Of a stretch of DNA of 64,000 nucleotides, positions 733-48,152 are shown piece by piece; positions within the stretch are counted from its first letter, which is position 1, and every line of letters begins with the position of its first letter. Source of the DNA: Naegleria gruberi. Taxonomy: Eukaryota. The stretch lies in NCBI GenBank assembly GCA_000004985.1, contig GG738847.1, one strand, 5' to 3'. The notes below the pieces were generated by a model that saw nothing but the letters and a program-made list of their open reading frames with translations, did not search any database and was not told the origin of the DNA. A program made the translations under genes and the position numbers.

Positions 733-2685
733 ATTTTTGATGATTTTTTTTTTAAGCTATTTGATGGCACCGTTGTGATGATTGTGATGGTGTGGAAGAG
801 GAAATCCTACAAAGTTACATTGTTGGTGTTTATTTTAGCTTCATTGCTTATTGGTTGCGTTGCATGTGCTACCCGTTATGAATATTGGGTCATGTTCAAC
901 AAGTACATGTTGTTGCGCTACTCTGAAGGTAAAAGTTCTTGACAATAATCTAGATTATGTTAATTATCCATGTGGTTGGTATACATGCCTGGGCGAAACC
1001 AGGAAATATTGGATTCAAAGGGTTATTATTTGTCTTTGAGTGGTTGGACTTCTAATGGGTTCTGTGATTCTTCTTCTGTTTATGCCACCTGTGTGAGTGG
1101 TTCTTGTTTGGTGATTCTGAAATTGTCTCATTGCCGGTTTTGAGATGAGTAATGTTTGGTAACGTAATTGTGTTTGGACTTCAAGAAGATAAACAACCAG
1201 GCATCAAAGTAAACTTATCTCTGTAAATTTAAGGTAACAAATGATCATTAGACCATGTGAACTTGGGAATTAAATCAAAAATGTAGTTTTAAAAGTATTT
1301 GAAAGTTGGTTTGTTGTTTTTTTATTGTACTGTTGTGTTCCCTTTTTCCTCAAGGGTATTGTGATGAAGCTGGTATACCCTTTAGAAAATGCAAACTTAA
1401 ATAAGCTACCAATCTCTTCAAATATAGAGCTTCTAATATTGATGAAAGCTGGAACAAAATTGTTTCCTGTTGTGGACTTCAAACCTTGGTAACATGAAAA
1501 GAACAATATATAATGTTCAGCTCTTCTTTTCCTGTGCCAATAGTTTCTAGATTTAAAACAAATTTACCATCTATTTCTAATATTAATGAATATCTATCTT
1601 CTGATATGGCATTGGAAGGTTTCTTCCTGGGAGAATTTTTGCAGGTTGCATTGGAATCCATTGCAGATGCTACTTCAATGGTTAATGGAAACAAACTTAT
1701 TAACTATATTTATACAAGCCAACAATTGGTGATAAGAGAACAAAAATATGGGTTCTTCAATAGAGATGACAAGAGAAATCCATTATGTAATATGGGACTG
1801 AGAGATAGGTTTTTGTTTGAGATTAAGAACTTTAACACAAATATGGTATCAACAACAACTTTTCCAAAGCAACAATGCTGTTTGCAAGACTTGTTGGAAA
1901 ATCCAAAATCTGTTACCTTTACAAGACTTAAACAAATTGTGAGATTAAAGAGATCAACATGACTGAAATGTTAACAATAGAACTAGTAGATGATTTCTCG
2001 AGAGGGATTATTACAAATATTAACCATGTTAACAATTTACACAAATATTCCTATCAGTTTCAATTCCTGACCCAATTCTACAATATACTGATATTATTCA
2101 CTCATAAATGAATTGATCACAAGACAACAAATTTTTAAAATATTTTGAAAACCTTATTTTCACAACAAAATTCATCTTTTCCAATTTTACAAAATTATTG
2201 AAATGGTTTGTTGTGACATGTATGGATGTCTACTTTTGTGATTGCTTTTTATGGAATTTTCGATAGATGTTGACATATTGAGCTTGTTCATTACTTCTTG
2301 TCAGCCACAAACAATGAGGTATTGCCATTCTGGAGAATGATCTCAAACGGTACCAGTCAATTTTGAGTGATCACTTTTTGAAACAATCAATAACTGTAGT
2401 TGTCCAACATATTGTTTAATAGTATTATTGTAATGTTTCGTTTAGTTCAGTTTAATTCAAAGGAACTTGATACCTCGTTCCAACATCTCCCTTTTTACAT
2501 TACGCAAGCCTTACAGAAGTACTCGCACGAACTCTTTTCAACGTATTAAACTGTAGACGAAACACATTTAAACTTTACAATAGTCAACTTGAAAATGTGT
2601 TCAACACTTTACCCAACACAAATTCCAAATTGCATGCAATTAAAAATGTATCATTAATTAAATAGTATCAAAATCTTAAAAAAAA

Positions 2686-4416
2686 ATGTCAAGACAAGAA
2701 GTTAACCAAACCACAACTCAATTCTATGAAATCCACAAAAATTACGATTTGATTCAGGAGGAGAGAATTAATCAGGTGAATTTTCTCATTCCCAATCAAG
2801 AGATTCAAATTTCATCAACTATTCATTCTATAAAACTCTATGATGATGCGAAGAAGGAAGTAGTAATTAATGATGATCGGAATGAAAATATAAATGATCA
2901 GGAAATTAAACAATTGGCAGAGAAGGGAAATGATGTGATGAAAGGACAAGAGGCTTATAAGAATGTTGATCATTTGTTTGTTTTGAATGAATTGCTTCAT
3001 CCTGATGAGTGTTGTCAAATTCTCTCTATTGAAAAGAAGCAAAAAAAGCAATTGGATGAAGTAAAGAGTCTTTCTAAAGATTTCGAATCAATTCAAGCAG
3101 AGTATCCTCCCGAATACAGAAATAGTAGCCGAATTATTTATAATGATAAGGAATTAGCTCAAAGATTGTGGAGAAGAATGAAGAAGCACTTGGTGAGATA
3201 TACATTTGTTAGACCTTATGGATTGGATAATGGTGGACATTGGATTCCAGTTGGAGTGAATGAATGTTTTAGAATGAGCAAGTATGAACCTGGAAATTAT
3301 TTCAAACCTCATGTTGATGGTCAATTTGTGAGAAATACGGATGAGAGAAGTGTTTATACTTTATTGATTTATTTGAATGAGGATTTTACTGGGGGAGAAA
3401 CAAGATTTTTGACAGTTGTTAATAATGTGGAAGAAGGACAAGGTTTGGATTCAAGCAAAAAAGTGAAGAAATTGTCAAGATCTGATAAGAAAATGGCAAA
3501 GAAAAAGTTTGCCAAAGAGGCAACAAAACTGAATCGTTTCAATGACAATCCAGAAAAGAGTTTAAAAGAAAATTCAACTTTACAATTCAAACATTTGTGC
3601 TCAGTTTCACCAAAAATAGGATCTGCAGCAATTTTCAATCATGATTTGTATCACGAAGGATGTCCAGTCACGAATGGTATCAAATACATTCTTAGAACTG
3701 AAATCATGTTTAAAAGAGTTGATTCGAATAGTGTTGTGAAAAATAAGAATGACACTAAGCTCTATAACCAAGTAATGGCCATTCTCAAACAGAGTGATGA
3801 TTTGGAAAAGAAGGGTAAAATTTACGAATCCACAGAATATTACAGAAAAGTTCAGGATTTATTAATAATGAATGGTCACTCCATGTCCTTATTGATGGTT
3901 CCAAAATTTCAAAGAAAATCAAATTTTTCAGATAATCAAACCGAATCTTACGACAATGAGTTGAGTATTCTTCCTGATGAAACCCTCAACCACATATTCT
4001 CATATCTACAAGATTCTGAAATTTGTACATTAATTTTACCTCTCGATAGATATTTTCATTATTTTGGAAGAAATAATCATTTGTGGGAATCATTGTATAT
4101 GCACAGATGGGGAAATAACATCACTGAACTATTGAAACGATTGTACAGAAAGAAAAACTTAGAGCTTGGTCAACTAAATAGCGTCGATAACACAACATCA
4201 ATTGATGAAACTCCCACGCTTGAAAATGATCAAAATTGGTACCATATTTATATAATGAAGAGATATTTCGAGAAGGAATTTGAACCAGTATTTTTGGATG
4301 TTGGATATGATCGTTCTAATTTGTCGAGCATTAGTGGAGAGTTCAAAAATGTGAGATCTCTAATGTACAGAACCAAATTCTCTCAGTATGTACATTTTTA
4401 TATTCGACATCATTAA
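2686..4416 (+). CDS. 2OG-Fe(II) oxygenase (prolyl 4-hydroxylase-like) with C-terminal F-box domain
   Basis: 576-aa ORF with an A-rich Kozak context (aaaaaaaaATG). The HVDGQF (His-x-Asp), YHEG (second His) and KYILRTEIMF (basic 2OG-binding residue) motifs are spaced as in P4H-type dioxygenases. Near the C-terminus LSILPDETLNHIFSYLQDSEICTLILPLDRYFHYFGRNNHLWESLY is a canonical F-box. Confidence 0.7.
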   Translation: MSRQEVNQTTTQFYEIHKNYDLIQEERINQVNFLIPNQEIQISSTIHSIKLYDDAKKEVVINDDRNENINDQEIKQLAEKGNDVMKGQEAYKNVDHLFVLNELLHPDECCQILSIEKKQKKQLDEVKSLSKDFESIQAEYPPEYRNSSRIIYNDKELAQRLWRRMKKHLVRYTFVRPYGLDNGGHWIPVGVNECFRMSKYEPGNYFKPHVDGQFVRNTDERSVYTLLIYLNEDFTGGETRFLTVVNNVEEGQGLDSSKKVKKLSRSDKKMAKKKFAKEATKLNRFNDNPEKSLKENSTLQFKHLCSVSPKIGSAAIFNHDLYHEGCPVTNGIKYILRTEIMFKRVDSNSVVKNKNDTKLYNQVMAILKQSDDLEKKGKIYESTEYYRKVQDLLIMNGHSMSLLMVPKFQRKSNFSDNQTESYDNELSILPDETLNHIFSYLQDSEICTLILPLDRYFHYFGRNNHLWESLYMHRWGNNITELLKRLYRKKNLELGQLNSVDNTTSIDETPTLENDQNWYHIYIMKRYFEKEFEPVFLDVGYDRSNLSSISGEFKNVRSLMYRTKFSQYVHFYIRHH

Positions 4417-4773
4417 CCTTATGTTTAGTTATAGCGTTTCTAGTTATTCCAACTATCGGCTGACAGAATCTGCTGGATATGCGAGAACCAGGCCCATCAC
4501 TGAAACTGAAATAGCCGCCAATTTTCACATATTCATTGTTCTTTTGTTATCCCAATTGAAGAAAACACCTCAGAGACATCCGATAGTTCTCAGTTTATCA
4601 CCAATATTGATGAAAAATTACAAAATCAATGAAGAGAAGATTAAGGATACGCTTGTAAGTTTACTATTATGGATTCAATCCTTTTCTATTAATCGACAAT
4701 AATCCAGTTTAAAAACAATGTTCCAGCTATATGCATACTCCCTAGATGTTACTTATTATCGATACATTATGAT

Positions 4774-5253
4774 GTGAGAACTTGTCTTGTGATAGATATT
4801 AATCAAGTTTGTTTGAGCGTCCATACAATAATTGAAAATGATATTGACACTATTGAATCACTGTATTTTGAATTTCCAAGGGTGATGGCAGGGTTTGAAA
4901 TTGTACCATTAATTTTTTCAGATGTTCATACAGAGGACTCCTTCGATAAATGTAAACTAGTTTCCATGATTGACCAAATACTTGGCCAATATCCAAACGA
5001 AATTAGATTCAAGCTCTCTGAAAACATCATTCTCTCTGGGGAAGTTATTGAAGATCAAAAGCAATTCATGGATTTCCAAAAAGAAGTCAAAACAAGATTC
5101 AACTCTAATTACTCTCGATACAAGATCAAGTTCACTACAGAAGGATCAGAAGCAATTAAGGGAGCAATATCCTTCTCAAAACTTCCAAACTTTAAAGATT
5201 ACTTTTCATATTGGTTTAATTGTGTGGATACTCTAAATAGGAATGGTATTTAA
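4774..5253 (+). CDS. hypothetical protein; start uncertain
   Basis: The track ORF starts at GTG. The first in-frame ATG is at 4885 (MAGFEIVPLIF...), about 122 aa. An A-rich ATG at 4718 lies in another frame and could be a short 5' exon, but I could not find a consistent splice. No recognisable domain. Confidence 0.3.
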   Translation: MRTCLVIDINQVCLSVHTIIENDIDTIESLYFEFPRVMAGFEIVPLIFSDVHTEDSFDKCKLVSMIDQILGQYPNEIRFKLSENIILSGEVIEDQKQFMDFQKEVKTRFNSNYSRYKIKFTTEGSEAIKGAISFSKLPNFKDYFSYWFNCVDTLNRNGI

Positions 5254-5256
5254 GGT

Positions 5257-6675
5257 TTATTCAGTATCCTCGAGTAAGAATTCAGCAATTTGTTCCTTCA
5301 TTTCCTTACGTGTTAATTGATAAGAATTTTGAATATATGATGGGAATGAATCATCAATAAAAACTTCACTGGTCAAGTCTGTAATGGCAACCTTTCCTAT
5401 TGATTGAGTATTTTGAGAATTCGAATAAGTTAACATTCTCTTGCAACCAAAACAACAACATGTTGAAAGCGACAAGTCTTCGGAGGTTGATTTAGCATCC
5501 TTCAAGTCTTCCTTTGAAAGGAAAGATCCACACATTGAGCATCTAATCTTATTTTGATCTGGAACCTTCAGTTTTTCAATAGTTCTCAAAATTGCATGAA
5601 CAGTCGATGGGAAATCCTTTTGTAACATTGAAATGAAATCTTCAACAAGTCTATTGATTGTACTTTGTCTTGCTCCTGCTTTGGTTGTGAGATTCTTAAC
5701 AAAGACATACTTCTTAATACCAGTCCAGTGATTGTACATGGCCAATTCGTTAGATAAAAAGCTACGAACAGGTCTGATATATGTTATCACTGGATCAGTT
5801 TCTGGGTTAAATGATGGTACATTATTCATAGTCTTGTCTTCGAGAACAATTTGTAAAGGAACAATATATCCTCTTCCCTTTGAAATTTCACTCAAAACAT
5901 TAATAGCCATATGATTAGCACTTTCACCTGTCAATACTTGCTTAAAGTTCTTTTCAACTGCAAATTTGTAAATGCATGTCTTGACCATTTGACTAATCAA
6001 ATCTTCATGAACACTCATAGTATTGAATTGTCTGAAAATGAAATCCTTCATTCTTTGTTCATCACCATCAAATAACATATCTTCAATTGATCTAATATGA
6101 ATAATATTATTACTTTCATCTAAATTTGTACAAAAATCTCTAACTTGTTGACGAACAGACTCTCTTTCTTCAGAATTTAATCCTAAAGCTCCAGTAACAT
6201 CAACAAATAAATATTCCCATTTGAAATGCAATTTCCAATTAGGATTTGGTGAAACGCAATTATGTAATAAATTAGCAAGTGATGTTGAATTCATTCCACC
6301 ACTAAAACAAACTAAAACTGTATCTCCCTTTGCAATTTTTTCATTTAAATTAATTTTAAATTGTTTGTGATTACTTTGAATAAATGTTTGTTTGTCAACA
6401 GGAACTCCTCTTCTTCCTTTGATTGCTGGTTGTCCCTTTACAGCTTGTTGTTTAGCAGCTTCTCTTTCTTCCTTGGAAGGTTTCTTTGGTGGTTGATTCT
6501 TTTTAGGTTTTGTTGTTGTAGTTGAATTATCACAATGATTATTACCGGAGCAACATTCGGTTGTTGTAGCTGGATGATTGGAAGATTGTACTTCCTCCGA
6601 GTTACCTCCACTATTTTGATGATGGCAATCACAAGAGTCAGAACATGAAATGTTGTTATTATTATCGGAAGACAT
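5257..6675 (-). CDS. cytoplasmic tRNA 2-thiolation protein 2 (CTU2/Ncs2)-like PP-loop family protein
   Basis: 472 aa. The N-terminus is low-complexity (N, S and Cys/His-rich). TVLVCFSGGMNSTSLANLLHN resembles the degenerate PP-loop of CTU2 (KVLLAWSGGPSSSSM). The C-terminal Cys cluster CSMCGSF...STCCCFGCKRM fits the CTU2 zinc-ribbon. ATG at 6673-6675 follows a poly-A run. Confidence 0.55.
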   Translation of the reverse strand: MSSDNNNNISCSDSCDCHHQNSGGNSEEVQSSNHPATTTECCSGNNHCDNSTTTTKPKKNQPPKKPSKEEREAAKQQAVKGQPAIKGRRGVPVDKQTFIQSNHKQFKINLNEKIAKGDTVLVCFSGGMNSTSLANLLHNCVSPNPNWKLHFKWEYLFVDVTGALGLNSEERESVRQQVRDFCTNLDESNNIIHIRSIEDMLFDGDEQRMKDFIFRQFNTMSVHEDLISQMVKTCIYKFAVEKNFKQVLTGESANHMAINVLSEISKGRGYIVPLQIVLEDKTMNNVPSFNPETDPVITYIRPVRSFLSNELAMYNHWTGIKKYVFVKNLTTKAGARQSTINRLVEDFISMLQKDFPSTVHAILRTIEKLKVPDQNKIRCSMCGSFLSKEDLKDAKSTSEDLSLSTCCCFGCKRMLTYSNSQNTQSIGKVAITDLTSEVFIDDSFPSYIQNSYQLTRKEMKEQIAEFLLEDTE

Positions 6676-7118: not shown

Positions 7119-7808
7119 CTAATCAATTCTAATGCAATGAAGGACATTCTTCTTTCCTTGTAATTGATCTTCAAAGGTCTTAAAATCAAAGGTAAATTGG
7201 TCAGCATGTGAAGTCAAGATTGAAAGATCACCCTGCTTTGTGTTACCAGTGATAGAACCATGGTTGAGAGACTCTTTAAATTGTTGTCCAATACGTACAA
7301 TAGCCTCGTCATTAGACTTATCACCAACCCAAATGTTCAATCTAAATTGTGATTTACGAACAGCAACACAACCTCCAGTGATAATTTCACCATCATCAAA
7401 GAATTCACCAATGAGAGCCATAGCTAAATTCATCCACCAATCGTTAACATTGCACTTCTTTCTCAAGAATGGGAACATCCACTCTCCTCCGTGGATATTC
7501 TTTGGGTCTTCCCATTCAGGCCTGATACCATCTTTCAAGATGTAGTAAGCGCTACCAGTTTCAAGATGAGTAGGAGGTTTAATATGGTTGAAAACACTCC
7601 AGAAATCTTCAACATATTCGAAGGTGTATACTTGAATAAATTGTGGTGGATTATGATACCATAAAGTCCATGATTGTTGCAATGGATGTTTTTGAGCAAA
7701 TTCAGGGTCTACATTTTCTTCGTAATGTTCTTCAGCAATGTCTTCTGCAGGATGTTGTTGATTGTCAATTTCTTCACTGAGTAGGGATCCACTGCTTGTT
7801 CTTTGCAT
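7119..7808 (-). CDS. eIF4E: eukaryotic translation initiation factor 4E
   Basis: 229 aa. HPLQQSWTLWYH, FKDGIRPEWEDPKN and GGEWMF are the conserved cap-binding Trp motifs of eIF4E. Confidence 0.8.
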   Translation of the reverse strand: MQRTSSGSLLSEEIDNQQHPAEDIAEEHYEENVDPEFAQKHPLQQSWTLWYHNPPQFIQVYTFEYVEDFWSVFNHIKPPTHLETGSAYYILKDGIRPEWEDPKNIHGGEWMFPFLRKKCNVNDWWMNLAMALIGEFFDDGEIITGGCVAVRKSQFRLNIWVGDKSNDEAIVRIGQQFKESLNHGSITGNTKQGDLSILTSHADQFTFDFKTFEDQLQGKKNVLHCIRID

Positions 7809-8510: not shown

Positions 8511-10745
8511 ATGTCGCAATTGCTGCAACACATTATTCTCAATGATGAATATATTCTCTCTCATATTTTATCTTATTTGAAAGTCGGAAATGTAATTTTG
8601 CTAGGAAGAGTATCGGGTACATGGAAGGAAATTATTCAAAAATTGTACTTTTTTCAATTTGAAGAGTTTTATTTGGATCAATATTTTGCAGAGTATTTTT
8701 CATTACGGGGGAGAGAAGGATCGATCAATCGTAGTGAAGGCATTGATGTTTGGAAAGGAAGGATGATCAATGTATTATCCAAATATCTTACGAATATACA
8801 AATTAGTTGTGGTACTTTTCAAAGTGTTACAGTGATGAATTTATTTGAAGACTTTATGTTGGATTTAAAATTGATAAAGAGCGTTTGTGCATTGTTTCCT
8901 TCGATAGAGGTATTTAGGATTTCATTTCCAGAGGAGAATGATCCAGCCAATTTTGTTGAAATTATTGAAATTATGATATCCCTGTTGGGAAATTTAAAGG
9001 AAATTCAAATAATATCTTGTGCTAGCCGTTCAAGCGGGGTTGATAACAAGTTAAATCAAAAAAGTATAATTCAATTGGAATTATTGAGCTATTTTGATGA
9101 ATTATCTAAGATGCATACCTCAATTTCGATTAAATTATTGGATTCTTTGACATTTTATACATCTAACTTGGGAAGACTTAGATTAAAGCTCGTTGAAATT
9201 CAATCATTCAAGAAAAATACAGAATTACAATTTAACACGAGAGAGAACTATTTTCAACTAAGCAGCAATGATTATTACAATTTAGAAGAAATATTTTCAA
9301 CTGATGAGGAATTACTTCAATTACTTACCGAAAATGAATGGATTCTGAAATTCCAATGTATGGAGTTCAATATTTTAACAATAGCAATCCATTTGAACTT
9401 TATTGAAAGTATGAAATATATTATAAGAAAACAACCAGATACTCTATACAGAGGCATGATAATTAACTACAACACAACATTAGCAACATCTTTTAAGTGT
9501 TTAAAAGAAGAAAATATTATATACCTCTTAGAAAACATGGTGAAATTATATGAAAAGAGTGAGTGCTTTATTCGTGATGAGATACCAATGCTTTTCAATC
9601 ACAATATGAGGAATGTACTCAGTCCACTCGAGAGCATTAGTGCAAAAGGAGATATGACTAACCACTATTTGGAGCTCACAATGAAAATATTTGGAAAAAA
9701 CCTATTCCAAGATAAGATTCTAAAATATCAAACTGGTCTCAGTACTCATCACTACATTCTGAGATATTTAAGCAGTCATCCATTATTATTGAATCAAATT
9801 ACTTATTGGGATTTGGACGATGAAAATGTTCGATTATTACTTGGTCATATTGTTCGGCTTGATGAAGTCCTTTTTCAACGAGTGGTTAGGGAATGGAAAG
9901 GATTCAATGAAAAATTAGTGAATAACTATAAGCTTGTCGATAATTGCAAGCAAAATATTCTTCATAATTTATTTTCCCATCACGATGTTCTTAATACCTC
10001 CGTTCAATATCATCATTTGAAGAAATTGTGTCCAAATATTTCAGAACTATTGTTGCAGCCAGATATTCTCAATTTTTATCCACTACAGAACCTGTTTACA
10101 AACCATTTCTGCATTGAATCCCGCTATGATCTTGTGGAAGAGCTTGTGACAGATATGAGGTCATTGGATGAGAATGAAACTAGAAAAATATTGAAGCATG
10201 CTTGTTTTGAACACAAACATTTCACAGTACTTTATGCATTGGTGAAATTTATGGGAGGAATTGATTTTTTGGAGGTGGAAGACTTGAATTTTGCCATGTC
10301 ATGGCACGGAGCTAATAGTTTGAAGGCTGAGGGCATTAATCGCCAATACTTTAACCTACTCCAGAAGGGCTATGTGAACCCAAAAAGAGTTAATTCTCAC
10401 AAACAAACTCTTCTTCATCAAGTAGCACTTGCTGGAATCAAACACTCAGGTCTTTTTATATTATTGGCAGCATTTGGATGTGGAGTTGATGATTTAGATG
10501 AATACGGGAACACTGTTTCACATTACTCTATTCCAAAGAACCAATGCTTACTGAAGAAAATGGGAGCAGATCCAAACATTTACAGCTTTTCAAAAAGAGC
10601 GTATTCATTCACGCAAAGGACGGGAAGAAATCTTTCTCCATACACGAAAAGGAGAATAGATAGAGTTTTAATTTGTCCAAGATGTCTCAAATATTTCACA
10701 TATTTCAGATCTGTTAGACATCATAATTTACATTGTAGAGATTAG
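8511..10745 (+). CDS. F-box-like / ankyrin-repeat protein with C-terminal C2H2-type zinc finger
   Basis: 744 aa. The N-terminus LLQHIILNDEYILSHILSYLKVGNVILLGRVSGTWKEII is F-box-like. Ankyrin-type repeats follow (HKQTLLHQVALAGI...GVDDLDEYGNTVSHYS...GADPN). The C-terminus is CPRCLKYFTYFRSVRHHNLHC. Poly-A Kozak context. Confidence 0.55.
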   Translation: MSQLLQHIILNDEYILSHILSYLKVGNVILLGRVSGTWKEIIQKLYFFQFEEFYLDQYFAEYFSLRGREGSINRSEGIDVWKGRMINVLSKYLTNIQISCGTFQSVTVMNLFEDFMLDLKLIKSVCALFPSIEVFRISFPEENDPANFVEIIEIMISLLGNLKEIQIISCASRSSGVDNKLNQKSIIQLELLSYFDELSKMHTSISIKLLDSLTFYTSNLGRLRLKLVEIQSFKKNTELQFNTRENYFQLSSNDYYNLEEIFSTDEELLQLLTENEWILKFQCMEFNILTIAIHLNFIESMKYIIRKQPDTLYRGMIINYNTTLATSFKCLKEENIIYLLENMVKLYEKSECFIRDEIPMLFNHNMRNVLSPLESISAKGDMTNHYLELTMKIFGKNLFQDKILKYQTGLSTHHYILRYLSSHPLLLNQITYWDLDDENVRLLLGHIVRLDEVLFQRVVREWKGFNEKLVNNYKLVDNCKQNILHNLFSHHDVLNTSVQYHHLKKLCPNISELLLQPDILNFYPLQNLFTNHFCIESRYDLVEELVTDMRSLDENETRKILKHACFEHKHFTVLYALVKFMGGIDFLEVEDLNFAMSWHGANSLKAEGINRQYFNLLQKGYVNPKRVNSHKQTLLHQVALAGIKHSGLFILLAAFGCGVDDLDEYGNTVSHYSIPKNQCLLKKMGADPNIYSFSKRAYSFTQRTGRNLSPYTKRRIDRVLICPRCLKYFTYFRSVRHHNLHCRD

Positions 10746-10752
10746 AAATAAT

Positions 10753-12432
10753 TTATTCTGATTTTTGATAGACAAAATTTAAATATTGACGATAATTGGT
10801 TGGTGTTAAGGTACTGAATGAATTAAATAGTTCAGATCTGAAATCTCCGAGTGGAGGCAATTCACCATCTTTCAAATTCATTCTTGACATTGCTAACTCT
10901 CCACTCAAAGCTACATAGGAACAGCCAGCTGATGCTGCAATAAGTGGATTGGAACATACTGATGCAAATGCTGCTTGGATGGCTCCTGTCATACATCCAA
11001 CACCTGTTAAATGTTGCAAGTTAGGCTCATTGTGGTAAACGTGAATAATATCAGAACCGTCAGAGATTACATCAACTGGTCCTGTCATACAAACAACACA
11101 GCCAAACTTTTGAGCTAATTCCGAGACAACCTTATCCATCTCTGGGAGATTTGATGAATTGGATTCAGAATCAACACCCTTCAACTTGGCAAATCCAGCA
11201 TTTCCATGAATTCTTCCAATCTCACCATAATTTCCTTTCAATATGGTGATTTTATGATTCAATAAAAGTTCCAAAACAGTTGCTTCTCTTGCCTTTGTAG
11301 CTCCATATCCAACAGGATCGAGAATGACTGGTTTACCCAATTCATTTGCACGTTTAGCAGCCAAATGCATAGCCTTAATTGAATATTCATCCAAAGTTCC
11401 AATGTTAATAAGAACACCACTTGCTATTCCAACCATATCACTAATTTCCTCATGATATTGAGACATTACAGGTGAAGCACCAATTGCTAATAAAGAATTG
11501 GCTGTTTGAGTTGTAACAACATTATTGGTGAGATTGTGAATGAGTGGTCTTGTCTTTTTGATATCCAAAAGGGCTTGTACCATTTCTTCTCTAACTCTTG
11601 CCTTATCATTTGATTGATTCATTTGATAATAATTAATAGTACTTCTCAATTCTCTGGATGCTTGAAGAGCACTTTCAGCTCCAACTACACTTGAAACAAC
11701 AGCCACACCGTCCACACCACATTCCATTACTTGAGAAATATTTTCCTTTCCAATACCTCCTATAGCAACAAGTCCAACATGTTTTCCATTTCTTGTGGTA
11801 TGTCTGACATATGAAACTAATTCTTTGAGACCATCCAAACCAACTGCTTGACCAGCATCTTTCTTTGTAAGGGTTGGGAATATTGCATTTGTACCCAAAT
11901 AATCAGCTCTAACATTGTGTGAAAGAGCTTCATCAACTTGGTCAAAAGTGCCAACTGTCAGACCCAAAATCTTTGAATTACCAATCAGTTTTCTAACATA
12001 TTGAGGAGGTAAATCCTTTTGTCCAACATGAACACCATCAGCATCAATAGCAACAGCCAAATCAACACGATCATCAATCAAGAATGGAACTCCATGTCTT
12101 CTACAAATTTTTTGCAAACTTTTAGCTTGTTCCAACATTTGTCTTGTTGTTAATTGTTGTGGATATCTCTTTTCACGATATTGGATAATTGATGATCCTC
12201 CCTCAATGGATTGCTCAACAGTTTCTTCCAAAGAACGTTTTCCCATCTTTTCTGAAATGTCGGAATCTGTAACAACATACAATCCGTAATCAATTTTGGT
12301 ACTATATGAACATTTTTGAAGAGAATTAAATAGTGATGATGATGGCAGCAGGAATTGTCTTGTAGATTTTTGATGGTTTTCTTGTTTTAAAATGTTTTGT
12401 GTAAGCTTGAGAGTTCTTTTTGAAGTTTTCAT
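10753..12432 (-). CDS. THI6: bifunctional thiamine-phosphate synthase / hydroxyethylthiazole kinase (THI6-type ThiE-ThiM fusion)
   Basis: 559 aa. The N-terminal half carries ThiE motifs (LYVVTDS, DADGVHVGQKD, RADYLGTNAIFPTLTKKD, VAIGGIGKENI). The C-terminal half carries ThiM motifs (PLIHNLTNNVVTTQTANSLLAIGASPVMS, VILDPVGYGATKAR, ILKGNYGEIGRI, CMTGPVDVISDG). The order matches fungal THI6. There is a basic ~45-aa N-terminal extension before the ThiE core. Confidence 0.8.
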   Translation of the reverse strand: MKTSKRTLKLTQNILKQENHQKSTRQFLLPSSSLFNSLQKCSYSTKIDYGLYVVTDSDISEKMGKRSLEETVEQSIEGGSSIIQYREKRYPQQLTTRQMLEQAKSLQKICRRHGVPFLIDDRVDLAVAIDADGVHVGQKDLPPQYVRKLIGNSKILGLTVGTFDQVDEALSHNVRADYLGTNAIFPTLTKKDAGQAVGLDGLKELVSYVRHTTRNGKHVGLVAIGGIGKENISQVMECGVDGVAVVSSVVGAESALQASRELRSTINYYQMNQSNDKARVREEMVQALLDIKKTRPLIHNLTNNVVTTQTANSLLAIGASPVMSQYHEEISDMVGIASGVLINIGTLDEYSIKAMHLAAKRANELGKPVILDPVGYGATKAREATVLELLLNHKITILKGNYGEIGRIHGNAGFAKLKGVDSESNSSNLPEMDKVVSELAQKFGCVVCMTGPVDVISDGSDIIHVYHNEPNLQHLTGVGCMTGAIQAAFASVCSNPLIAASAGCSYVALSGELAMSRMNLKDGELPPLGDFRSELFNSFSTLTPTNYRQYLNFVYQKSE

Positions 12433-43449: not shown

Positions 43450-46400
43450 TTACAAAAGGAAAACAGAGGCAATGGCCAAAAGGACAGCCAAGAGACTAGA
43501 GAAAACTGAAGCAGATGCACTCTTTACAGTGAGGGAAGTGAATTTGTTACCAAAATTGAGGGTTGGGAGAGAAAGGGTAACAGTAGCATCAGACAAGTCA
43601 ACAACCATTGGAGCATTCATAAATCCAGAGAATGTACTAGTAGCACAATCAATATCCAAATTGGTCTTAATCTTCATAGTATGGACCTTTCCATTTTGAC
43701 TAACTGGAACAACATAGAATGACAATCCATTTTCCAAGAGATGTCCCTTAAGAACAGTTGATGGTCCAAGATTTTGAGTGGCCTTAGCAGTTTCAGTATA
43801 GAGGACAATGGTACCATTGGCAAACCATGATGAAATATAACCAGTGTAGGAACCTTGAATTCTATCCAAGAGACCATCAGGATAAGCTGGGGCAACAACA
43901 CTCTTACGGAGTTGTTCAATAATTGGAGTGAAAATAATTGGAGCATTCTTGAGAGCAATATTGTTAGCAACTGGAGAGTTCAAAGAAGCTAAAGTAATCA
44001 TTACAAAATCAAGTTCTGGAACAACCAATGGTTTGGCATTGTAACCATAAACAGAACCTCCCTTAGTCAAGTAGAACAAGTTATTTTTGTTGTCATACAT
44101 GGTTTCAAAGGCACCCAAACCAATGGTGAACGTAGCATCGTTAGCCAAGAATGTTGGCATGAATTGTCTCATAGCATCCTTTGAAATTGGAACTGGACAA
44201 GCATTGGCATTGTTAAGAGAGCTATAAGTGAAACAAGAGAAGAATTTTAACATATCATTAGCAGTACTGTACATGCCACCAGCAGGTTCTTGAGCCAACA
44301 ACATGGTCAAATAATCTGGATCTCTACCAACAACCATCTTGGAAAGAATATCAGAAGTATAATCAAATCCAGTGTTTGACATGCCCAACTTGTCGAAAAT
44401 GTTAATCTTACAGAATTCTCTGAATGATTTACCTGTAATCAATTCAAGAACTCTACCCAAAATAGTAAAGTCTACATTACTGTAATAACGATCACTGATG
44501 GATGGAGCCATAAATTGCAACAAGTCAACAGTGGCTTTTCTGTATTCATCAAAAGTCATACTGCAATTATATGGGTCACAAGGGGAAGTTCTAGACAAAC
44601 CAGCACCATGGATCATTAATTGTCTGAAAGTAATCTTGTTAGTTGCTGTCGTAAAGTACTTGTTAGTATATTGGAAATCTTTAACATAGTTAGTGATTGG
44701 TTCATCAATACTCTTAATAATACCCAATTCTTGAGCAATCAAAGCAGCCATACTGGTAAAAACTTTAGTGACAGAGGCAACTCTAAAGATGGAATCGGCA
44801 GTAGGGGTTTCAGTTTCCTTACCCTTTGTACCAACTTGACCAACACCTTGGTTCATAACAACAGTATCTCTATATTTGGCAAGAATAATTCCTGATCCAT
44901 TCTTTGCGCCATTGTCAACCAAAATAGATTTAACCATGTTATTCTTGAGGTCTGTTAAAGCAGATTGAAGAGTTGAAACATCAATTTCTGCAGATCTTGG
45001 AAGAATGTTACATTTAGGGTTTGAATCAGCTGCCTTCAATGCTCTGACTTGAGACTTGAGGGATCTAGCACTTGCCTTTGGATTGACATCAGAACTAATC
45101 TTAGTGTAAGCAACGAACCAATCAAGACCTGGCATCCAGAAGTACAAGTTACCGTCCTTATCATTTGAGAATCTAAGAACTTCATTTCCGTAACCTCCCT
45201 TAAACAATGTCAAAGAATCGATATATGCAGCTTCTTGAATATCTCTAATAATGAAAGCATTATTTGGTTGGTAATCCAAATCAAAATTAACATAAATTCC
45301 ACCCAAATTAATGTTCATAATAGTTTGACCATCTTGATAATACAAAGTGGCATTGGTTCCATCAGCATTACACAAATAGGTACCTTGGTACTTGGCTTGA
45401 TCTTGAGCTGGAGGTAAAACAAATGCTGGCATGACAGACACATATTGACTCATAAGTGTTCCAACAGCCTTAGCATAAATTTGTTCAGCAATATATGTAG
45501 CAAAGACATCTCTATTGGAAGAAATTGAAATGATTGCAAACTTGTATTCTGGAACAAAGATCATGTGAGAAGAAAATCCGAGAACGTTTCCTCTCTTAGA
45601 TCTCTTCCATACGTTATACTTGCTATCGTGACTCATTTCAAAGGCAAAACCAGTTGCATTTTGAGCGTCTGGAGAAATATATTGAGGAGTGAAAAATTCA
45701 CGAACAGTTTGACGAGTAAGAATACTTTCATCATTCAAGATTGAGGAGGCATAATAGGTCAAATCTTGCAATGTAGAGTAAGCATCCATGGAACCTTCAC
45801 ACCAACCAGACTTTACTTCAGAATCGAATGTGATGGTGGCATTGCCAGCATAGCTTGGAGTAACGTGAGTGGAAACAGTGAGGAGATCAGAGACGAGACC
45901 AGAGTTGGACATGGAGGCACTTTTCATTACATCCTTAAGATTAGAAGAGACGGATTGGCCATTCATCTTGGCAAGAGCTTGACTCAACCAACAATAACCA
46001 AAGTCAGAATAAACTGGTACAGAGTATGGTTCATGTATAGCTGACGAATGTCCAGGAAGACCAGAATCGGTCATTGCCTTAACGACTTCATCACTAGAAA
46101 GATTACAATCAAAGAGTTTGCAAGGAGCTTGTCTACCGAGACCGCTCATGTGTGTGGATAATTGTCTCAAAGTTACAGAGGAAATTGGAAACTTGGAGAA
46201 TGTACTAGTGAGAGCATCATCGAGTTTCAACTTTCCAGCATCTCTCATTCTGAACATTTGAGTAGCAACCAACAACTTGGTCAAATCACCAATACGAACC
46301 TTAGTGGTGGCGTCACCATTTCCAGAGAACAAACTAATTGTGTTACCACCTGGATACACAATAGCACTAGCAGCAAAACCTGATGAAACTGTAAAGGCAG

Positions 46401-46506
46401 CATCTTGGATAGCTTGAGCATCACTTGGAGAAAACTTTGCGTCTAAGAATGTTGAGCAGAAAAGCAAGCAACTTAGAAGAATTACTAGAATTGTTGGTTT
46501 GAGCAT
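43450..46506 (-). CDS. secreted tandem beta-lactamase/transpeptidase-like (PF00144-type) protein with probable GPI anchor
   Basis: Signal peptide MLKPTILVILLSCLLFCSTFLDA. Domain 1 has RIGDLTKLLVATQ...LRQLSTHMSGL, so the SxxK motif carries Asp in place of Ser. Domain 2 has FRVASVTKVFTSMAAL...FRQLMIHGAGL with an intact SxxK and a YSN motif. The hydrophobic C-terminal tail SLLAVLLAIASVFLL follows small residues, which looks like a GPI-attachment signal. Confidence 0.7.
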   Translation of the reverse strand: MLKPTILVILLSCLLFCSTFLDAKFSPSDAQAIQDAAFTVSSGFAASAIVYPGGNTISLFSGNGDATTKVRIGDLTKLLVATQMFRMRDAGKLKLDDALTSTFSKFPISSVTLRQLSTHMSGLGRQAPCKLFDCNLSSDEVVKAMTDSGLPGHSSAIHEPYSVPVYSDFGYCWLSQALAKMNGQSVSSNLKDVMKSASMSNSGLVSDLLTVSTHVTPSYAGNATITFDSEVKSGWCEGSMDAYSTLQDLTYYASSILNDESILTRQTVREFFTPQYISPDAQNATGFAFEMSHDSKYNVWKRSKRGNVLGFSSHMIFVPEYKFAIISISSNRDVFATYIAEQIYAKAVGTLMSQYVSVMPAFVLPPAQDQAKYQGTYLCNADGTNATLYYQDGQTIMNINLGGIYVNFDLDYQPNNAFIIRDIQEAAYIDSLTLFKGGYGNEVLRFSNDKDGNLYFWMPGLDWFVAYTKISSDVNPKASARSLKSQVRALKAADSNPKCNILPRSAEIDVSTLQSALTDLKNNMVKSILVDNGAKNGSGIILAKYRDTVVMNQGVGQVGTKGKETETPTADSIFRVASVTKVFTSMAALIAQELGIIKSIDEPITNYVKDFQYTNKYFTTATNKITFRQLMIHGAGLSRTSPCDPYNCSMTFDEYRKATVDLLQFMAPSISDRYYSNVDFTILGRVLELITGKSFREFCKINIFDKLGMSNTGFDYTSDILSKMVVGRDPDYLTMLLAQEPAGGMYSTANDMLKFFSCFTYSSLNNANACPVPISKDAMRQFMPTFLANDATFTIGLGAFETMYDNKNNLFYLTKGGSVYGYNAKPLVVPELDFVMITLASLNSPVANNIALKNAPIIFTPIIEQLRKSVVAPAYPDGLLDRIQGSYTGYISSWFANGTIVLYTETAKATQNLGPSTVLKGHLLENGLSFYVVPVSQNGKVHTMKIKTNLDIDCATSTFSGFMNAPMVVDLSDATVTLSLPTLNFGNKFTSLTVKSASASVFSSLLAVLLAIASVFLL

Positions 46507-47073: not shown

Positions 47074-48152
47074 TTACATCATGCTACACTTTTCATTCTT
47101 GTTGGAAACCTGTAATACTTTTGCATCGTCTTTTAACACTAACTTGAGAATTTCACTGATCGAGTAGGATCCAAGATAATGTCTTCTTCCCAATTGTTCA
47201 AACATGGCCCTCAGACTCGAATTACTGGTGGCGTTCGTTTCAAAAATTTCACTGTTCGAAAGATCATACGTTTTGATTAATTGTCCAAGCTTCTTCTTAT
47301 ACTCATCAACTTGATTTCGATATGTTGGATCTGAATTTGAAAAATCAATCTTATTCAGTGCAAACATGACTGGGAAATCATTCACCACTGCATTCTTTGC
47401 TTTCACAATCAGCTCGATATTAAAAATCAATTCTTGCATAATGAAATTGTCAATGGATGATACCACAACAAAGGCTTGTCTGTATTTCATATACTGTTCT
47501 TTCATTGAACTGAATTCCTCTCCATGAATATCATCATTCAATTCCAATCTAATTGATTTTTCATCCACTCGAATAAATTTCAAATCCACATCTTCTATTG
47601 TTGGATCGTAACTGTTTCATATGATTTAAAGTTATGAAGGATTGGAATGTTTCACAATATTTACATACGTTAAACCATAATTGGAAAAAATTCATGAACA
47701 AATGAATTGATTATACTGGTCTTTCCACTTTTCCTACATCCAGTAACGAATATTCTAATATCTCCTGCTCTATTCTCTGAAACTGGATGCAGTAGTGTTC
47801 TTCTAGCATGTCTTGTCAATAGAATTTTCCTTTTCAAGCAATTCTTCTTAATCATTTCCAACTTTGCTTTTTCAATTTCTTTTGAATTACTTTCTGGTTG
47901 TTCCAATTCGAACACTTTCCACCAAAAATTATTTAAATATTCTCTCATTTCCATTCTAGAATTTAATCGACAACTCAAGCTCTCAAATATGGCCATCATT
48001 CTAATAGAATTTTTAACTGTTCCACGATCGGATAATGATGTGTCCACAACAAATTCTAAAATTTCTATCAAGATTTCACTTGGGATTTGCAGAAATAAAT
48101 TAAATTCTTGAGGGTGGCCATACTGATGTGAGTGTTTCTTGTGTTTCGACAT
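47074..48152 (-). CDS. Ras-like small GTPase with N-terminal F-box-like extension and C-terminal CAAX box; 2 exons, junction unresolved
   Basis: Exon 1 (about 47593..48152) starts at MSKHKKHSHQ. It has an F-box-like segment IPSEILIEILEFVVD and the P-loop VTGCRKSGKTSIINSF. Exon 2 (47074..about 47622) has switch I YDPTIED, a degenerate G3 (DDIHGEE), G4 NKID and a CSMM terminus. No canonical GT..AG pair joins the two frames: a stop follows ...FPIMV and the phases mismatch. Confidence 0.5.

What the first reader, a model, noticed from the sequence alone, without database searches (positions are those of the whole stretch)
2686..4416. Prolyl-4-hydroxylase-like 2OG oxygenase fused to an F-box
One uninterrupted ORF carries a complete HxD...H...R dioxygenase core and a textbook F-box at the C-terminus. 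F-box domains dock on Skp1. In some protists a cytosolic P4H hydroxylates a proline of Skp1 itself. A P4H tethered to Skp1 through its own F-box would be an oxygen-sensing enzyme physically recruited to its own substrate or to the SCF ligase. Two other F-box-like genes lie within 45 kb (8511..10745 and 47074..48152).
Basis: partly seen in the sequence, partly recalled or inferred. Interest (0 to 1): 0.6.

Follow-up and report, generated by a model that had tools for sequence, protein, structure and literature searches.

The report
Prolyl-hydroxylase–F-box–actin-fold protein, gene model truncated
This Naegleria gruberi gene does join a collagen-type prolyl-hydroxylase-like oxygenase to an F-box, but the open reading frame is only the first exon of a three-exon gene that ends in a degenerate actin-like domain, and this three-domain protein belongs to a widespread, apparently unstudied eukaryotic family that may link oxygen or metabolite sensing to ubiquitin ligases.

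Summary
ORF 2686..4416 (576 aa) is identical to a deposited Naegleria gruberi "predicted protein". It carries a 2OG/Fe(II) oxygenase domain (Pfam PF13640, E 2.4e-10; H209-x-D211, H323, K333, R337). It also carries an F-box that is below Pfam's cut-off in this protein alone but clear across the family.

The ORF is not the whole gene. Two short introns (4386..4428 and 4655..4707) lie at the same codons and phases as in the annotated N. lovaniensis ortholog. They extend the gene to 5253, giving 823 aa, and add a very divergent actin-fold domain. The F-box is therefore central, not C-terminal.

The oxygenase–linker–F-box–actin-like layout recurs in Heterolobosea, Dictyostelia, choanoflagellates, a sponge, a chytrid, foraminifera and a dinoflagellate. 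Every member that carries a source name (about half of those looked up) is named only hypothetical or by domain, and I found no paper on the family.

The oxygenase is collagen-type (profile E 4.7e-11 to Bacillus anthracis P4H). It is not the Skp1/HIF type (DdPhyA E 0.011). Dictyostelium has orthologs, yet deleting phyA alone abolishes Skp1 hydroxylation there. "Hydroxylates Skp1" is therefore unlikely.

Most likely this is a Skp1-docked hydroxylase and receptor, analogous to KDM2A/B and Dictyostelium JcdI. The mechanism is inferred, not shown.

The parts
2686..4385 (+). Exon 1 of the rebuilt gene (aa 1-566 plus the first two bases of His567). It carries the oxygenase, the helical linker, the F-box and the start of the actin-like domain.
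   Evidence: ORF. 100% identical to the deposited N. gruberi protein. Donor CA|GTATGT at 4386.
4386..4428 (+). Intron 1, 43 nt, GTATGT...TTTAG, phase 2. The deposited 576-aa model reads through it to a stop at 4414-4416.
   Evidence: Best-scoring splice combination against the orthologs. Same codon (His after '...GG/FS') and same phase as the annotated 67-nt intron of the N. lovaniensis ortholog.
4429..4654 (+). Exon 2 (aa 567-642), the actin-like domain region equivalent to actin residues about 88-130.
   Evidence: hhalign of the Naegleria C-terminal profile against human beta-actin: E 5.5e-5 over actin 88-157. phmmer against PDB actins: E 0.13-0.6.
4655..4707 (+). Intron 2, 53 nt, GTAAGT...TCCAG, phase 0.
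   Evidence: Homologous position and phase to the 50-nt intron 2 of the N. lovaniensis ortholog, which lies before 'MEMRIPAAC' where this gene has 'FKNNVPAIC'.
4708..5253 (+). Exon 3 (aa 643-823 plus stop TAA at 5251-5253), the rest of the actin-like domain.
   Evidence: 181 open codons, chance about 1e-5. tblastn of N. fowleri aa 583-739 onto 4720-5214, E 3e-10. BLASTP of the C-terminal part against the N. lovaniensis and N. fowleri orthologs: 23-24% identity over about 285 aa, E 4e-16 and 2e-18.
2947..3729 (+). 2OG/Fe(II) oxygenase domain (aa about 88-348), collagen-type prolyl-4-hydroxylase-like. Iron ligands are H209 (3310-3312), D211 (3316-3318) and H323 (3652-3654). The 2OG-binding residue is K333 (3682-3684). 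R337 (3694-3696) is invariant.
3418..3576 (+). Lysine-rich, low-confidence insertion inside the oxygenase fold (aa 245-297, 28% K+R). It is seen in the N. lovaniensis and N. fowleri orthologs and in an unnamed metagenomic relative (P0007).
   Evidence: Alignment. pLDDT below 50 for aa 249-262 and 282-295. Composition.
3736..3879 (+). Conserved two-helix linker (aa 351-398) between the oxygenase and the F-box. Y386 is invariant.
   Evidence: Family sub-profile E 1e-21. Helices 354-375 and 379-395 in the model. Found in most family members.
3955..4110 (+). F-box (aa 424-475; 'LSILPDETLNHIFSYLQDSEICTLILPLDRYFHYFGRNNHLWESLY').
   Evidence: Pfam F-box-like 19.7 bits, E 7e-4, sub-threshold. Family F-box sub-profile E 8e-27. 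Family profile against solved F-boxes, E 9e-10 to 1e-7. 37 of 49 members pass at E <= 1e-3.
4273..5250 (+). Degenerate actin-fold domain (aa about 530-823, spliced across both introns). The nucleotide-binding motifs are eroded: 'DVGYD' for DNGSG, 'DINQV' for DSGDG, 'SGE' for SGG.

Best explanation
The locus encodes the N. gruberi member of a conserved, unnamed eukaryotic family of F-box proteins. The real product is an 823-aa, three-exon protein with this layout:
- an N-terminal cytosolic, collagen-type prolyl-4-hydroxylase-like 2OG/Fe(II) oxygenase with an intact iron and 2OG site;
- a conserved two-helix linker;
- an F-box;
- a C-terminal degenerate actin fold.

Proposed mechanism; every step of it is inferred, none is shown.
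1. The F-box docks the protein on Skp1, and through Skp1 on Cul1/Rbx1.
2. The actin-fold domain sits where WD40 or LRR receptor domains sit in canonical F-box proteins. It has lost the residues needed for ATP hydrolysis, so it probably serves as the partner- or substrate-binding module.
3. The oxygenase hydroxylates a residue, most likely a proline, on a bound partner or on an SCF-associated protein, in a reaction that depends on O2, Fe(II) and 2OG.
4. Oxygen or metabolic state would thereby be coupled to ubiquitylation, or to the stability of the enzyme itself.

The arrangement parallels KDM2A/B (JmjC oxygenase, F-box, LRR) and Dictyostelium JcdI (F-box with a JmjC oxygenase).
For: Shown:
- Gene structure. 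The best splice solution keeps the frame open to 5253. Both introns lie at the same codon and phase as in the annotated N. lovaniensis ortholog. The C-terminal part is homologous to the orthologs (E 2e-18 and 4e-16).
- F-box. Family profile against solved F-boxes, E 9e-10 and weaker; 37 of 49 members match Pfam F-box-like.
- Conserved order. 49 of 170 stored relatives show oxygenase-linker-F-box-actin and another 45 show oxygenase-linker-F-box. Taxa span Discoba, Amoebozoa, Opisthokonta and SAR.
- Cytosolic. The N-terminus is hydrophilic and no membrane-spanning segment is seen by hydropathy.
- Precedent. JcdI is a dioxygenase whose F-box binds Skp1 (PMC9485057).
Against: - No experiment exists on any family member. 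Skp1 binding, catalysis and substrate are all inferred.
- The N. gruberi F-box is below Pfam's gathering score on its own.
- The N. gruberi actin-like domain is so divergent that Pfam does not call it, and an actin sub-profile built without Naegleria sequences does not find it.
- AF2 confidence is only moderate: mean pLDDT 67-70 and pTM 0.43-0.52. Inter-domain geometry is therefore unknown.
- There is no transcript evidence for the N. gruberi introns; support comes from comparison alone.
- Collagen-type similarity does not prove that proline is the target residue.
Confidence: 0.6

Rival explanations
1. The enzyme is a Skp1 prolyl hydroxylase that is tethered to its own substrate through the F-box.
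For: A P4H-like domain and an F-box sit in one polypeptide. Skp1 Pro hydroxylation by a cytosolic P4H exists in protists (PMC7864055; PMC9485057).
Against: - The oxygenase profile is collagen-type. DdPhyA scores only E 0.011 and PHD2 is not detected. Structural matches to DdPhyA are no better than to many other P4Hs, at 13-18% identity.
- Dictyostelium has orthologs of this family, but deleting phyA alone abrogates Skp1 hydroxylation (PMC9485057 abstract).
- The family is also present in a sponge, choanoflagellates and a chytrid.
- The target Pro lies in the Skp1 C-terminal segment associated with F-box binding.
- The model gives no role to the conserved actin-fold domain.
Confidence: 0.08
2. 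The enzyme is the cargo rather than a receptor. The F-box mainly subjects the hydroxylase to Skp1/SCF-dependent control of its own abundance or localisation, as proposed for JcdI. Its real substrates lie elsewhere, for example in the actin cytoskeleton or in Arp-containing complexes reached through the actin-fold domain.
For: - In JcdI the dioxygenase activity, not the F-box, drove the oxygen phenotype, and the F-box was linked to JcdI levels (PMC9485057).
- The actin-fold domain resembles Arp4 and actin most closely.
- Accessory targeting domains (WW, FYVE, Arf, rhodanese) occur in some members.
Against: No data on turnover. The domain order, with the F-box followed by a C-terminal protein-binding fold, is the canonical receptor layout. 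This rival overlaps with the best explanation and differs from it only in emphasis.
Confidence: 0.22
3. A non-degradative Skp1 scaffold or a pseudoenzyme. The protein forms a Skp1 complex without Cul1, as KDM2B does in PRC1.1 or Ctf13 in CBF3, and the oxygenase and/or the actin fold act only as binding modules.
For: The actin-fold nucleotide motifs are eroded, with the P2 Asp lost in most members and all three motifs degenerate in Naegleria. 8 of 142 relatives lack the full catalytic motif. KDM2A/B F-boxes are among the best PDB hits.
Against: The iron and 2OG ligands are invariant or nearly so across very distant lineages. That argues for retained catalysis.
Confidence: 0.08
4. The deposited 576-aa two-domain protein is the true product, and the downstream open frames are a decaying remnant.
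For: The deposited model ends at 4416. The C-terminal region is much more divergent than the rest, at 23% against about 39% identity to the orthologs.
Against: Canonical GTATGT and GTAAGT donors, with introns at exactly the orthologous positions and phases. 75 and 181 codons stay open (p about 0.009 and 1e-5). Homology extends to the last residues. The paralog model P0006 and its unnamed metagenomic relative P0005 stop at the same place, which suggests a systematic annotation artefact.
Confidence: 0.04

Closest known systems
KDM2A/FBXL11 and KDM2B/FBXL10 (animals)
   Same: A 2OG/Fe(II) oxygenase lies N-terminal to an F-box, which is followed by a C-terminal protein-interaction domain, all in one polypeptide that binds Skp1. 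Their F-boxes are among the best solved-structure matches to the family profile (E 4e-8 to 8e-7).
   Different: The catalytic domain there is a JmjC lysine demethylase, not a P4H-type fold. The C-terminal module is LRR, not an actin fold. They carry CXXC and PHD chromatin readers that are absent here.
Dictyostelium JcdI/Fbxo13 and JcdH (JmjD6-like F-box dioxygenases; PMC9485057)
   Same: Protist non-haem dioxygenases that carry an F-box. Skp1 binding and oxygen-dependent activity were shown for JcdI. They are conserved across protists and proposed to act as an oxygen sensor wired to SCF.
   Different: They have a JmjC fold placed C-terminal to the F-box and no actin-like domain. They belong to a different oxygenase clade.
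Collagen-type prolyl 4-hydroxylases (P4Hc: B. anthracis P4H, Chlamydomonas CrP4H-1, PBCV-1 vCPH, human P4H-TM and C-P4H alpha)
   Different: Eukaryotic members of that group are luminal, secreted or membrane enzymes (own knowledge). This protein has no signal peptide or membrane segment and is fused to an F-box and an actin fold. Its substrate is unknown.
Skp1 prolyl hydroxylase PhyA (Dictyostelium, Toxoplasma) and the HIF PHDs
   Different: Sequence relationship is only weak (E 0.011 to DdPhyA, none to PHD2). PhyA has no F-box and no actin fold.
Actin-related proteins (Arp4 and other Arps)
   Different: It is shorter and the nucleotide-binding motifs are eroded. It is fused to an F-box and an oxygenase. 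It belongs to none of the numbered Arp classes as far as tested. The Dictyostelium actinome paper does not mention F-box proteins (PMC2441452).

Membership tests
2OG/Fe(II) oxygenase superfamily (Pfam PF13640, 2OG-FeII_Oxy_3) | Profile match above the curated cut-off | tested here: met
   41.7 bits against a cut-off of 27, E 2.4e-10, aa 196-335.
2OG/Fe(II) oxygenase superfamily (Pfam PF13640, 2OG-FeII_Oxy_3) | H-x-D...H iron-binding triad plus a basic 2OG-binding residue | tested here: met
   H209, D211, H323, K333 and R337 are present and invariant or nearly invariant in the family.
2OG/Fe(II) oxygenase superfamily (Pfam PF13640, 2OG-FeII_Oxy_3) | Double-stranded beta-helix fold | tested here: met
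2OG/Fe(II) oxygenase superfamily (Pfam PF13640, 2OG-FeII_Oxy_3) | 2OG-dependent hydroxylase activity | not testable with these tools
   Needs recombinant enzyme.
Collagen-type prolyl 4-hydroxylase (P4Hc) | Closest sequence relatives are P4Hc enzymes, with Lys 10 residues after the distal His | tested here: met
   Profile E 4.7e-11 to BaP4H, 4.6e-8 to CrP4H-1, 1.1e-6 to P4H-TM and 8.7e-6 to vCPH. K333 aligns with the Lys of BaP4H 'GEKW'.
Collagen-type prolyl 4-hydroxylase (P4Hc) | Secretory or luminal location (signal peptide or membrane anchor) in eukaryotic members | tested here: not met
   Hydrophilic N-terminus (mean Kyte-Doolittle -1.36); maximum 19-aa hydropathy 1.42. This is a hydropathy check only, not a dedicated predictor.
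Collagen-type prolyl 4-hydroxylase (P4Hc) | Hydroxylates peptidyl proline | not testable with these tools
   Substrate unknown.
Skp1/HIF-type prolyl hydroxylase (PhyA, PHD/EGLN) | Specific sequence relationship to PhyA or PHD2 | tested here: not met
   DdPhyA E 0.011; PHD2 not found at E <= 1. Identity is 13-18% in structural alignments, no better than to other P4Hs.
Skp1/HIF-type prolyl hydroxylase (PhyA, PHD/EGLN) | Hydroxylates Skp1 | not testable with these tools
   Indirect evidence against: deleting phyA alone abrogates Skp1 hydroxylation in Dictyostelium (PMC9485057), although orthologs of this family exist there.
F-box proteins | F-box profile match above the curated cut-off | tested here: inconclusive
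   This protein scores 19.7 bits against 24.3. Orthologs and relatives score 25-47 bits, and 37 of 49 members match at E <= 1e-3. The family profile hits solved F-boxes at E 9e-10.
F-box proteins | L-P-x-E...L..IF..L...W signature and a helical F-box fold | tested here: met
   'LPDETLNHIFSYL...LW' at aa 427-467. Helices 431-438, 443-450, 455-461 and 464-475 at pLDDT 74-87.
F-box proteins | Binds Skp1 | not testable with these tools
   Needs co-IP, yeast two-hybrid or complex prediction with Naegleria Skp1.
Actin/Arp superfamily | Actin profile match | tested here: inconclusive
   - This protein has no Pfam hit; phmmer against PDB actins gives E 0.13-0.6.
- The Naegleria C-terminal profile against beta-actin gives E 5.5e-5 at 66% probability.
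- The N. lovaniensis and N. fowleri orthologs are sub-threshold (24.8 and 19.9 bits).
- Dictyostelium, Acrasis and other members are above the cut-off.
Actin/Arp superfamily | Actin fold | tested here: met
Actin/Arp superfamily | Intact nucleotide-binding motifs (phosphate 1, phosphate 2, adenosine) | tested here: not met
   N. gruberi has DVGYD, DINQV and SGE. The P2 Asp is lost in most family members, while DxGS and TGG are kept in many non-Naegleria members.
JmjC-type oxygenase F-box proteins (KDM2A/B, JcdI) | JmjC catalytic domain | tested here: not met
   No JmjC or cupin match. The domain is PF13640 and P4H-like. The relationship is one of analogy, not membership.

The most novel reading that the evidence does not exclude
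An ancient, possibly LECA-era, cytosolic oxygen, 2OG or iron sensor built into an SCF ligase. A collagen-type prolyl hydroxylase and a pseudo-actin receptor sit on one F-box protein. Hydroxylation of a bound cytoskeletal or Arp-complex partner creates or removes a degron in cis. This would amount to a self-contained 'PHD plus VHL in one polypeptide' system, independent of HIF and of the PhyA-Skp1 pathway, and it survives in amoebae, choanoflagellates and sponges.
Probability: 0.15. Interest if true: 0.85.

Novelty: new variant of a known kind. Interest (0 to 1): 0.55.

Why it matters
Oxygenase-bearing F-box proteins such as KDM2A/B and JcdI are among the few direct wires between oxygen or metabolite levels and ubiquitin ligases. 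This locus reveals a different and apparently undescribed wire: a collagen-type prolyl hydroxylase, an F-box and a degenerate actin fold in one protein.

The family is conserved from Naegleria and Dictyostelium to choanoflagellates, a sponge, a chytrid, foraminifera and a dinoflagellate. Members that carry a source name are labelled only as hypothetical or by domain. Several hosts are tractable (Dictyostelium, Naegleria, choanoflagellates), so the function can be tested directly.

There is also a practical result. The deposited N. gruberi model, and probably that of at least one paralog, is truncated at a conserved intron, which hides the third domain.

Tried and rejected
I used the 576-aa ORF and the full-length N. 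lovaniensis ortholog instead.
- Nine literature searches found no paper on this architecture (one further query was rejected for syntax). Terms covered F-box with actin and prolyl hydroxylase, the Dictyostelium actinome, Naegleria with Skp1 and Gnt1, and others. The Dictyostelium actinome paper does not mention F-box or hydroxylase. The JcdI paper and its one held supplement do not mention a P4H or actin F-box protein. PMC4288264 and PMC4623824 are not held.
- I could not test whether Naegleria has PhyA and Gnt1, or the target proline in its Skp1. Those genes are not in the window and no taxon-restricted search exists.
- An actin sub-profile built without Naegleria sequences does not detect the N. 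gruberi C-terminal domain. The actin assignment for this species rests on transitive homology and one local hhalign match.
- A search from a Dictyostelium cf. discoideum paralog found a D. discoideum ortholog, but it has no gene name.
- I rejected a clustering of F-box genes in the window as meaningful. One candidate is weak, and the other is a Ras-like GTPase with no F-box match.
Full report
**Source and observation.** The window is Naegleria gruberi. ORF 2686..4416 on the + strand (576 aa) is 100% identical to a deposited 'predicted protein [Naegleria gruberi]' on a 941-kb contig. Stops occur at 0.061 per codon across all frames of the window, so 576 open codons are not chance (p about 2e-16).

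Pfam finds 2OG-FeII_Oxy_3 at aa 196-335 (E 2.4e-10, 41.7 bits, cut-off 27). It finds F-box-like at aa 427-471 (E 7e-4, 19.7 bits, below the cut-off of 24.3). The catalytic residues H209, D211, H323, K333 and R337 are in the sequence. H323, K333 and R337 are invariant and H209/D211 nearly invariant in 25 homologs.

**The ORF is not the whole gene.** The N. lovaniensis and N. fowleri orthologs (743 and 744 aa), the Dictyostelium homologs (about 770 aa) and an Acrasis homolog all carry a third Pfam domain after the F-box, Actin PF00022.

- tblastn of the N. lovaniensis protein aligns aa 47-739 to window 2968..5214, well beyond the stop at 4416.
- I enumerated GT..AG combinations that keep the frame open and scored them against the orthologs. 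The best model is exon 1 2686..4385, intron 1 4386..4428 (GTATGT...TTTAG, 43 nt, phase 2), exon 2 4429..4654, intron 2 4655..4707 (GTAAGT...TCCAG, 53 nt, phase 0) and exon 3 4708..5253. The product is 823 aa.
- The annotated N. lovaniensis gene (L001:6001-8349) has exactly two introns, of 67 and 50 nt. They lie in the homologous His codon ('YRIGG[H]YSFF' against 'YRTKFS[H]YSVSS', phase 2) and before 'MEMRIPAAC' against 'FKNNVPAIC' (phase 0). This conservation of position and phase is the main support for the new model.
- The deposited 576-aa protein ends by reading 30 nt into intron 1.
- Exons 2 and 3 stay open for 75 and 181 codons (p about 0.009 and 1e-5).
- The new C-terminal 295 residues align with the orthologs over about 285 aa (23-24% identity, E 2e-18 and 4e-16).

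**The oxygenase.** AF2 modelling of the 576-aa ORF gives a confident double-stranded beta-helix, with core pLDDT 84-96.

- Foldseek against the PDB returns prolyl hydroxylases and their kin: Pseudomonas PPHD, PBCV-1 vCPH, PiuC, CrP4H-1, PHD2 and DdPhyA, at E 6e-7 to 2e-5 and 11-17% identity.
- A sequence profile of the oxygenase domain from 16 family members discriminates better. It scores B. anthracis P4H at E 4.7e-11, CrP4H-1 at 4.6e-8, human P4H-TM at 1.1e-6 and vCPH at 8.7e-6. Poxvirus C10 scores 1e-3 and DdPhyA only 0.011. PHD2 is absent at E <= 1.
- In that alignment K333 matches the 2OG-binding Lys of BaP4H, 10 residues after the distal His. From my own knowledge, this is the collagen-type spacing (His483/Lys493 in human C-P4H).

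The domain is therefore a collagen-type (P4Hc) hydroxylase module, not a PhyA/PHD-type one. The protein has a hydrophilic N-terminus and no membrane-like segment, so it is cytosolic or nuclear, as expected of an F-box protein. A lysine-rich, low-confidence insertion (aa 245-297) interrupts the fold in the Naegleria orthogroup.

**The F-box.** On its own the N. gruberi F-box is sub-threshold. It carries the 'LPDETLNHIFSYL...LW' signature and is modelled as the expected helical bundle. It aligns to F-boxes that pass Pfam's cut-off in relatives, at 25-47 bits. The family sub-profile matches it at E 8e-27. The whole-family profile hits the solved F-boxes of FBXL5 (9e-10), FBXO3, KDM2B, KDM2A and FBXO4. 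A conserved two-helix linker (aa 351-398) precedes it.

**The actin-like domain.** At family level this is solid.

- 36 of 49 three-domain members match Pfam Actin at E <= 1e-3, with a best E of 9e-36.
- The family profile aligns to actin residues 4-329 and to Arp4 (E 3.5e-9 and weaker).

For N. gruberi itself the evidence is transitive.

- Pfam does not call the domain.
- A sub-profile built without Naegleria sequences misses it.
- The only direct signals are phmmer E 0.13-0.6 to actins and an hhalign match of the Naegleria C-terminal profile to beta-actin residues 88-157 (E 5.5e-5, 66% probability).

Motif columns show that many members keep phosphate-1 'DxGS' and adenosine 'TGG' but have lost Asp154 of phosphate-2. 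The Naegleria orthologs are degenerate in all three motifs (N. gruberi: DVGYD, DINQV, SGE). I infer a non-hydrolysing, protein-binding actin fold.

**The family.** An exhaustive profile search of 1.84 billion cluster representatives found 1690 proteins at E <= 1e-30, and the top 150 all lie below E 1e-68. Weaker hits include ordinary P4Hs and actins.

134 of 142 near-complete oxygenase domains keep HxD...H...[KR]xxxR.
- Named sources are:
  - Heterolobosea: N. gruberi, N. lovaniensis, N. fowleri, Willaertia magna and Acrasis kona;
  - Dictyostelia: D. discoideum, D. citrinum, D. firmibasis, D. purpureum, Polysphondylium, Heterostelium, Tieghemostelium, Acytostelium and Cavenderia;
  - choanoflagellates: Choanoeca flexa and Salpingoeca infusionum;
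  - the sponge Ephydatia muelleri and the chytrid Nowakowskiella;
  - the foraminifera Bolivina and Nonionella;
  - the dinoflagellate Breviolum minutum.
- Every member that carries a source name (about half of those looked up) is labelled hypothetical or by domain name only.
- Naegleria has several paralogs: at least three in N. gruberi and at least four in N. lovaniensis.
- Some members add WW, rhodanese, Arf, FYVE or ankyrin domains.

**Literature.** Nine full-text searches found no description of a P4H-F-box-actin protein. The Dictyostelium actinome paper does not mention F-box or hydroxylase. The nearest precedent is Dictyostelium JcdI/Fbxo13, a JmjD6-like dioxygenase. Its F-box binds Skp1, its Km for O2 is physiological, and its level and Skp1 association depend on PhyA (PMC9485057). 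JMJD6-F-box fusions were noted earlier (PMC2938197).

**Mechanism.** What is shown:
- a single gene;
- three conserved domains in a fixed order;
- an intact oxygenase active site;
- an F-box of the Skp1-binding type;
- a C-terminal actin fold with eroded ATPase motifs.

What is inferred:
- The F-box docks the protein on Skp1.
- The actin fold occupies the receptor position and binds a partner.
- The oxygenase hydroxylates, probably on proline, a bound partner or SCF component in a reaction that depends on O2, 2OG and Fe.
- This couples oxygen or metabolic state to ubiquitylation or to the enzyme's own turnover.

A close rival follows the JcdI precedent: the F-box mainly regulates the enzyme, and the substrates are cytoskeletal or lie in Arp complexes.

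I put it at about 0.08.
- The catalytic domain is not PhyA-like.
- Dictyostelium carries orthologs, yet deleting phyA alone abrogates Skp1 hydroxylation.
- The target proline lies in the Skp1 C-terminal segment associated with F-box binding.
- The model gives the conserved actin fold nothing to do.

**Verdict.** The gene itself is already deposited. The architecture is a new variant of the known class of oxygenase-bearing F-box proteins, and it appears uncharacterised.

Noticed in passing
window 4386..4428; protein P0006 (N. gruberi paralog, elsewhere on the same 941-kb contig, not in the window): The deposited N. gruberi model for this gene stops by reading through intron 1. The paralog model P0006 (451 aa) ends at '...YVGRYTGGQ' and its unnamed metagenomic relative P0005 (447 aa, ENA) ends at '...YVGRNSGVQ'. 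That is the same conserved intron position ('...YRIGG[H]' in N. lovaniensis). The N. gruberi annotation has therefore probably truncated at least one further paralog and lost its actin-fold exons.
   Followed up: partly
window 8511..10745 (+): A 744-aa ORF with a weak N-terminal F-box match (17.8 bits, E 0.003), ankyrin repeats near the C-terminus (Ank_2, E 8e-6) and a C-terminal zinc-finger-like tail (zf-MYST, E 0.001). It is a plausible ankyrin F-box protein but is not related to the finding.
   Followed up: partly
Pfam Ras matches the downstream ORF at E 7e-8, and the upstream ORF ends in a P-loop-like 'GCRKSGKTS'. It has an N-terminal extension that looks F-box-like by eye ('IPSEILIEILEFV') but has no Pfam F-box match at E <= 0.1. 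Its intron could not be placed cleanly.
   Followed up: partly
window 5251..5259: The rebuilt gene's stop codon (5251-5253) lies 3 nt from the stop end of the convergent CTU2 (tRNA 2-thiolation) gene at 5257..6675 on the minus strand. The two 3' UTRs must therefore overlap.
   Followed up: no
window 1513..1962 (+); L001:8484-10901: The upstream ORF has a weak match to the periplasmic-binding-like domain of adenylate cyclases (E 2e-4). In N. lovaniensis the gene next to the ortholog encodes an OpuAC plus guanylate cyclase protein. This may be a remnant of conserved neighbourhood, with the order inverted.
   Followed up: no
window 3418..3576 (aa 245-297): A lysine-rich insertion ('KKVKKLSRSDKKMAKKKFAKE...') sits inside the oxygenase fold and is predicted to be disordered. 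It is seen in the N. lovaniensis and N. fowleri orthologs and in an unnamed metagenomic relative (P0007). It could be a nuclear-localisation or nucleic-acid-binding patch.
   Followed up: no
family members P0018/P0177 (Breviolum), P0190 (Heterostelium), P0028 (D. purpureum, 2127 aa), P0014/P0027 (Dictyostelium cf. discoideum): Lineage-specific additions to the core architecture include WW (4 members), rhodanese (2), Arf GTPase, FYVE and ankyrin domains. There is a 2127-aa version in D. purpureum. In Dictyostelium cf. discoideum two 90%-identical copies lie in tandem (loci 002477 and 002478).
   Followed up: no
window 5257..6675, 7119..7808, 10753..12432, 43450..46506, 48356..49972: The neighbours are ordinary housekeeping or secreted-protein genes. 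They are CTU2, eIF4E (Pfam E 1e-43), a bifunctional thiamine-phosphate synthase and hydroxyethylthiazole kinase (E 1e-57 and 6e-73), a 1018-aa secreted protein and a 538-aa repeat protein that looks NHL-like by eye. Nothing links them functionally to the finding.
   Followed up: partly
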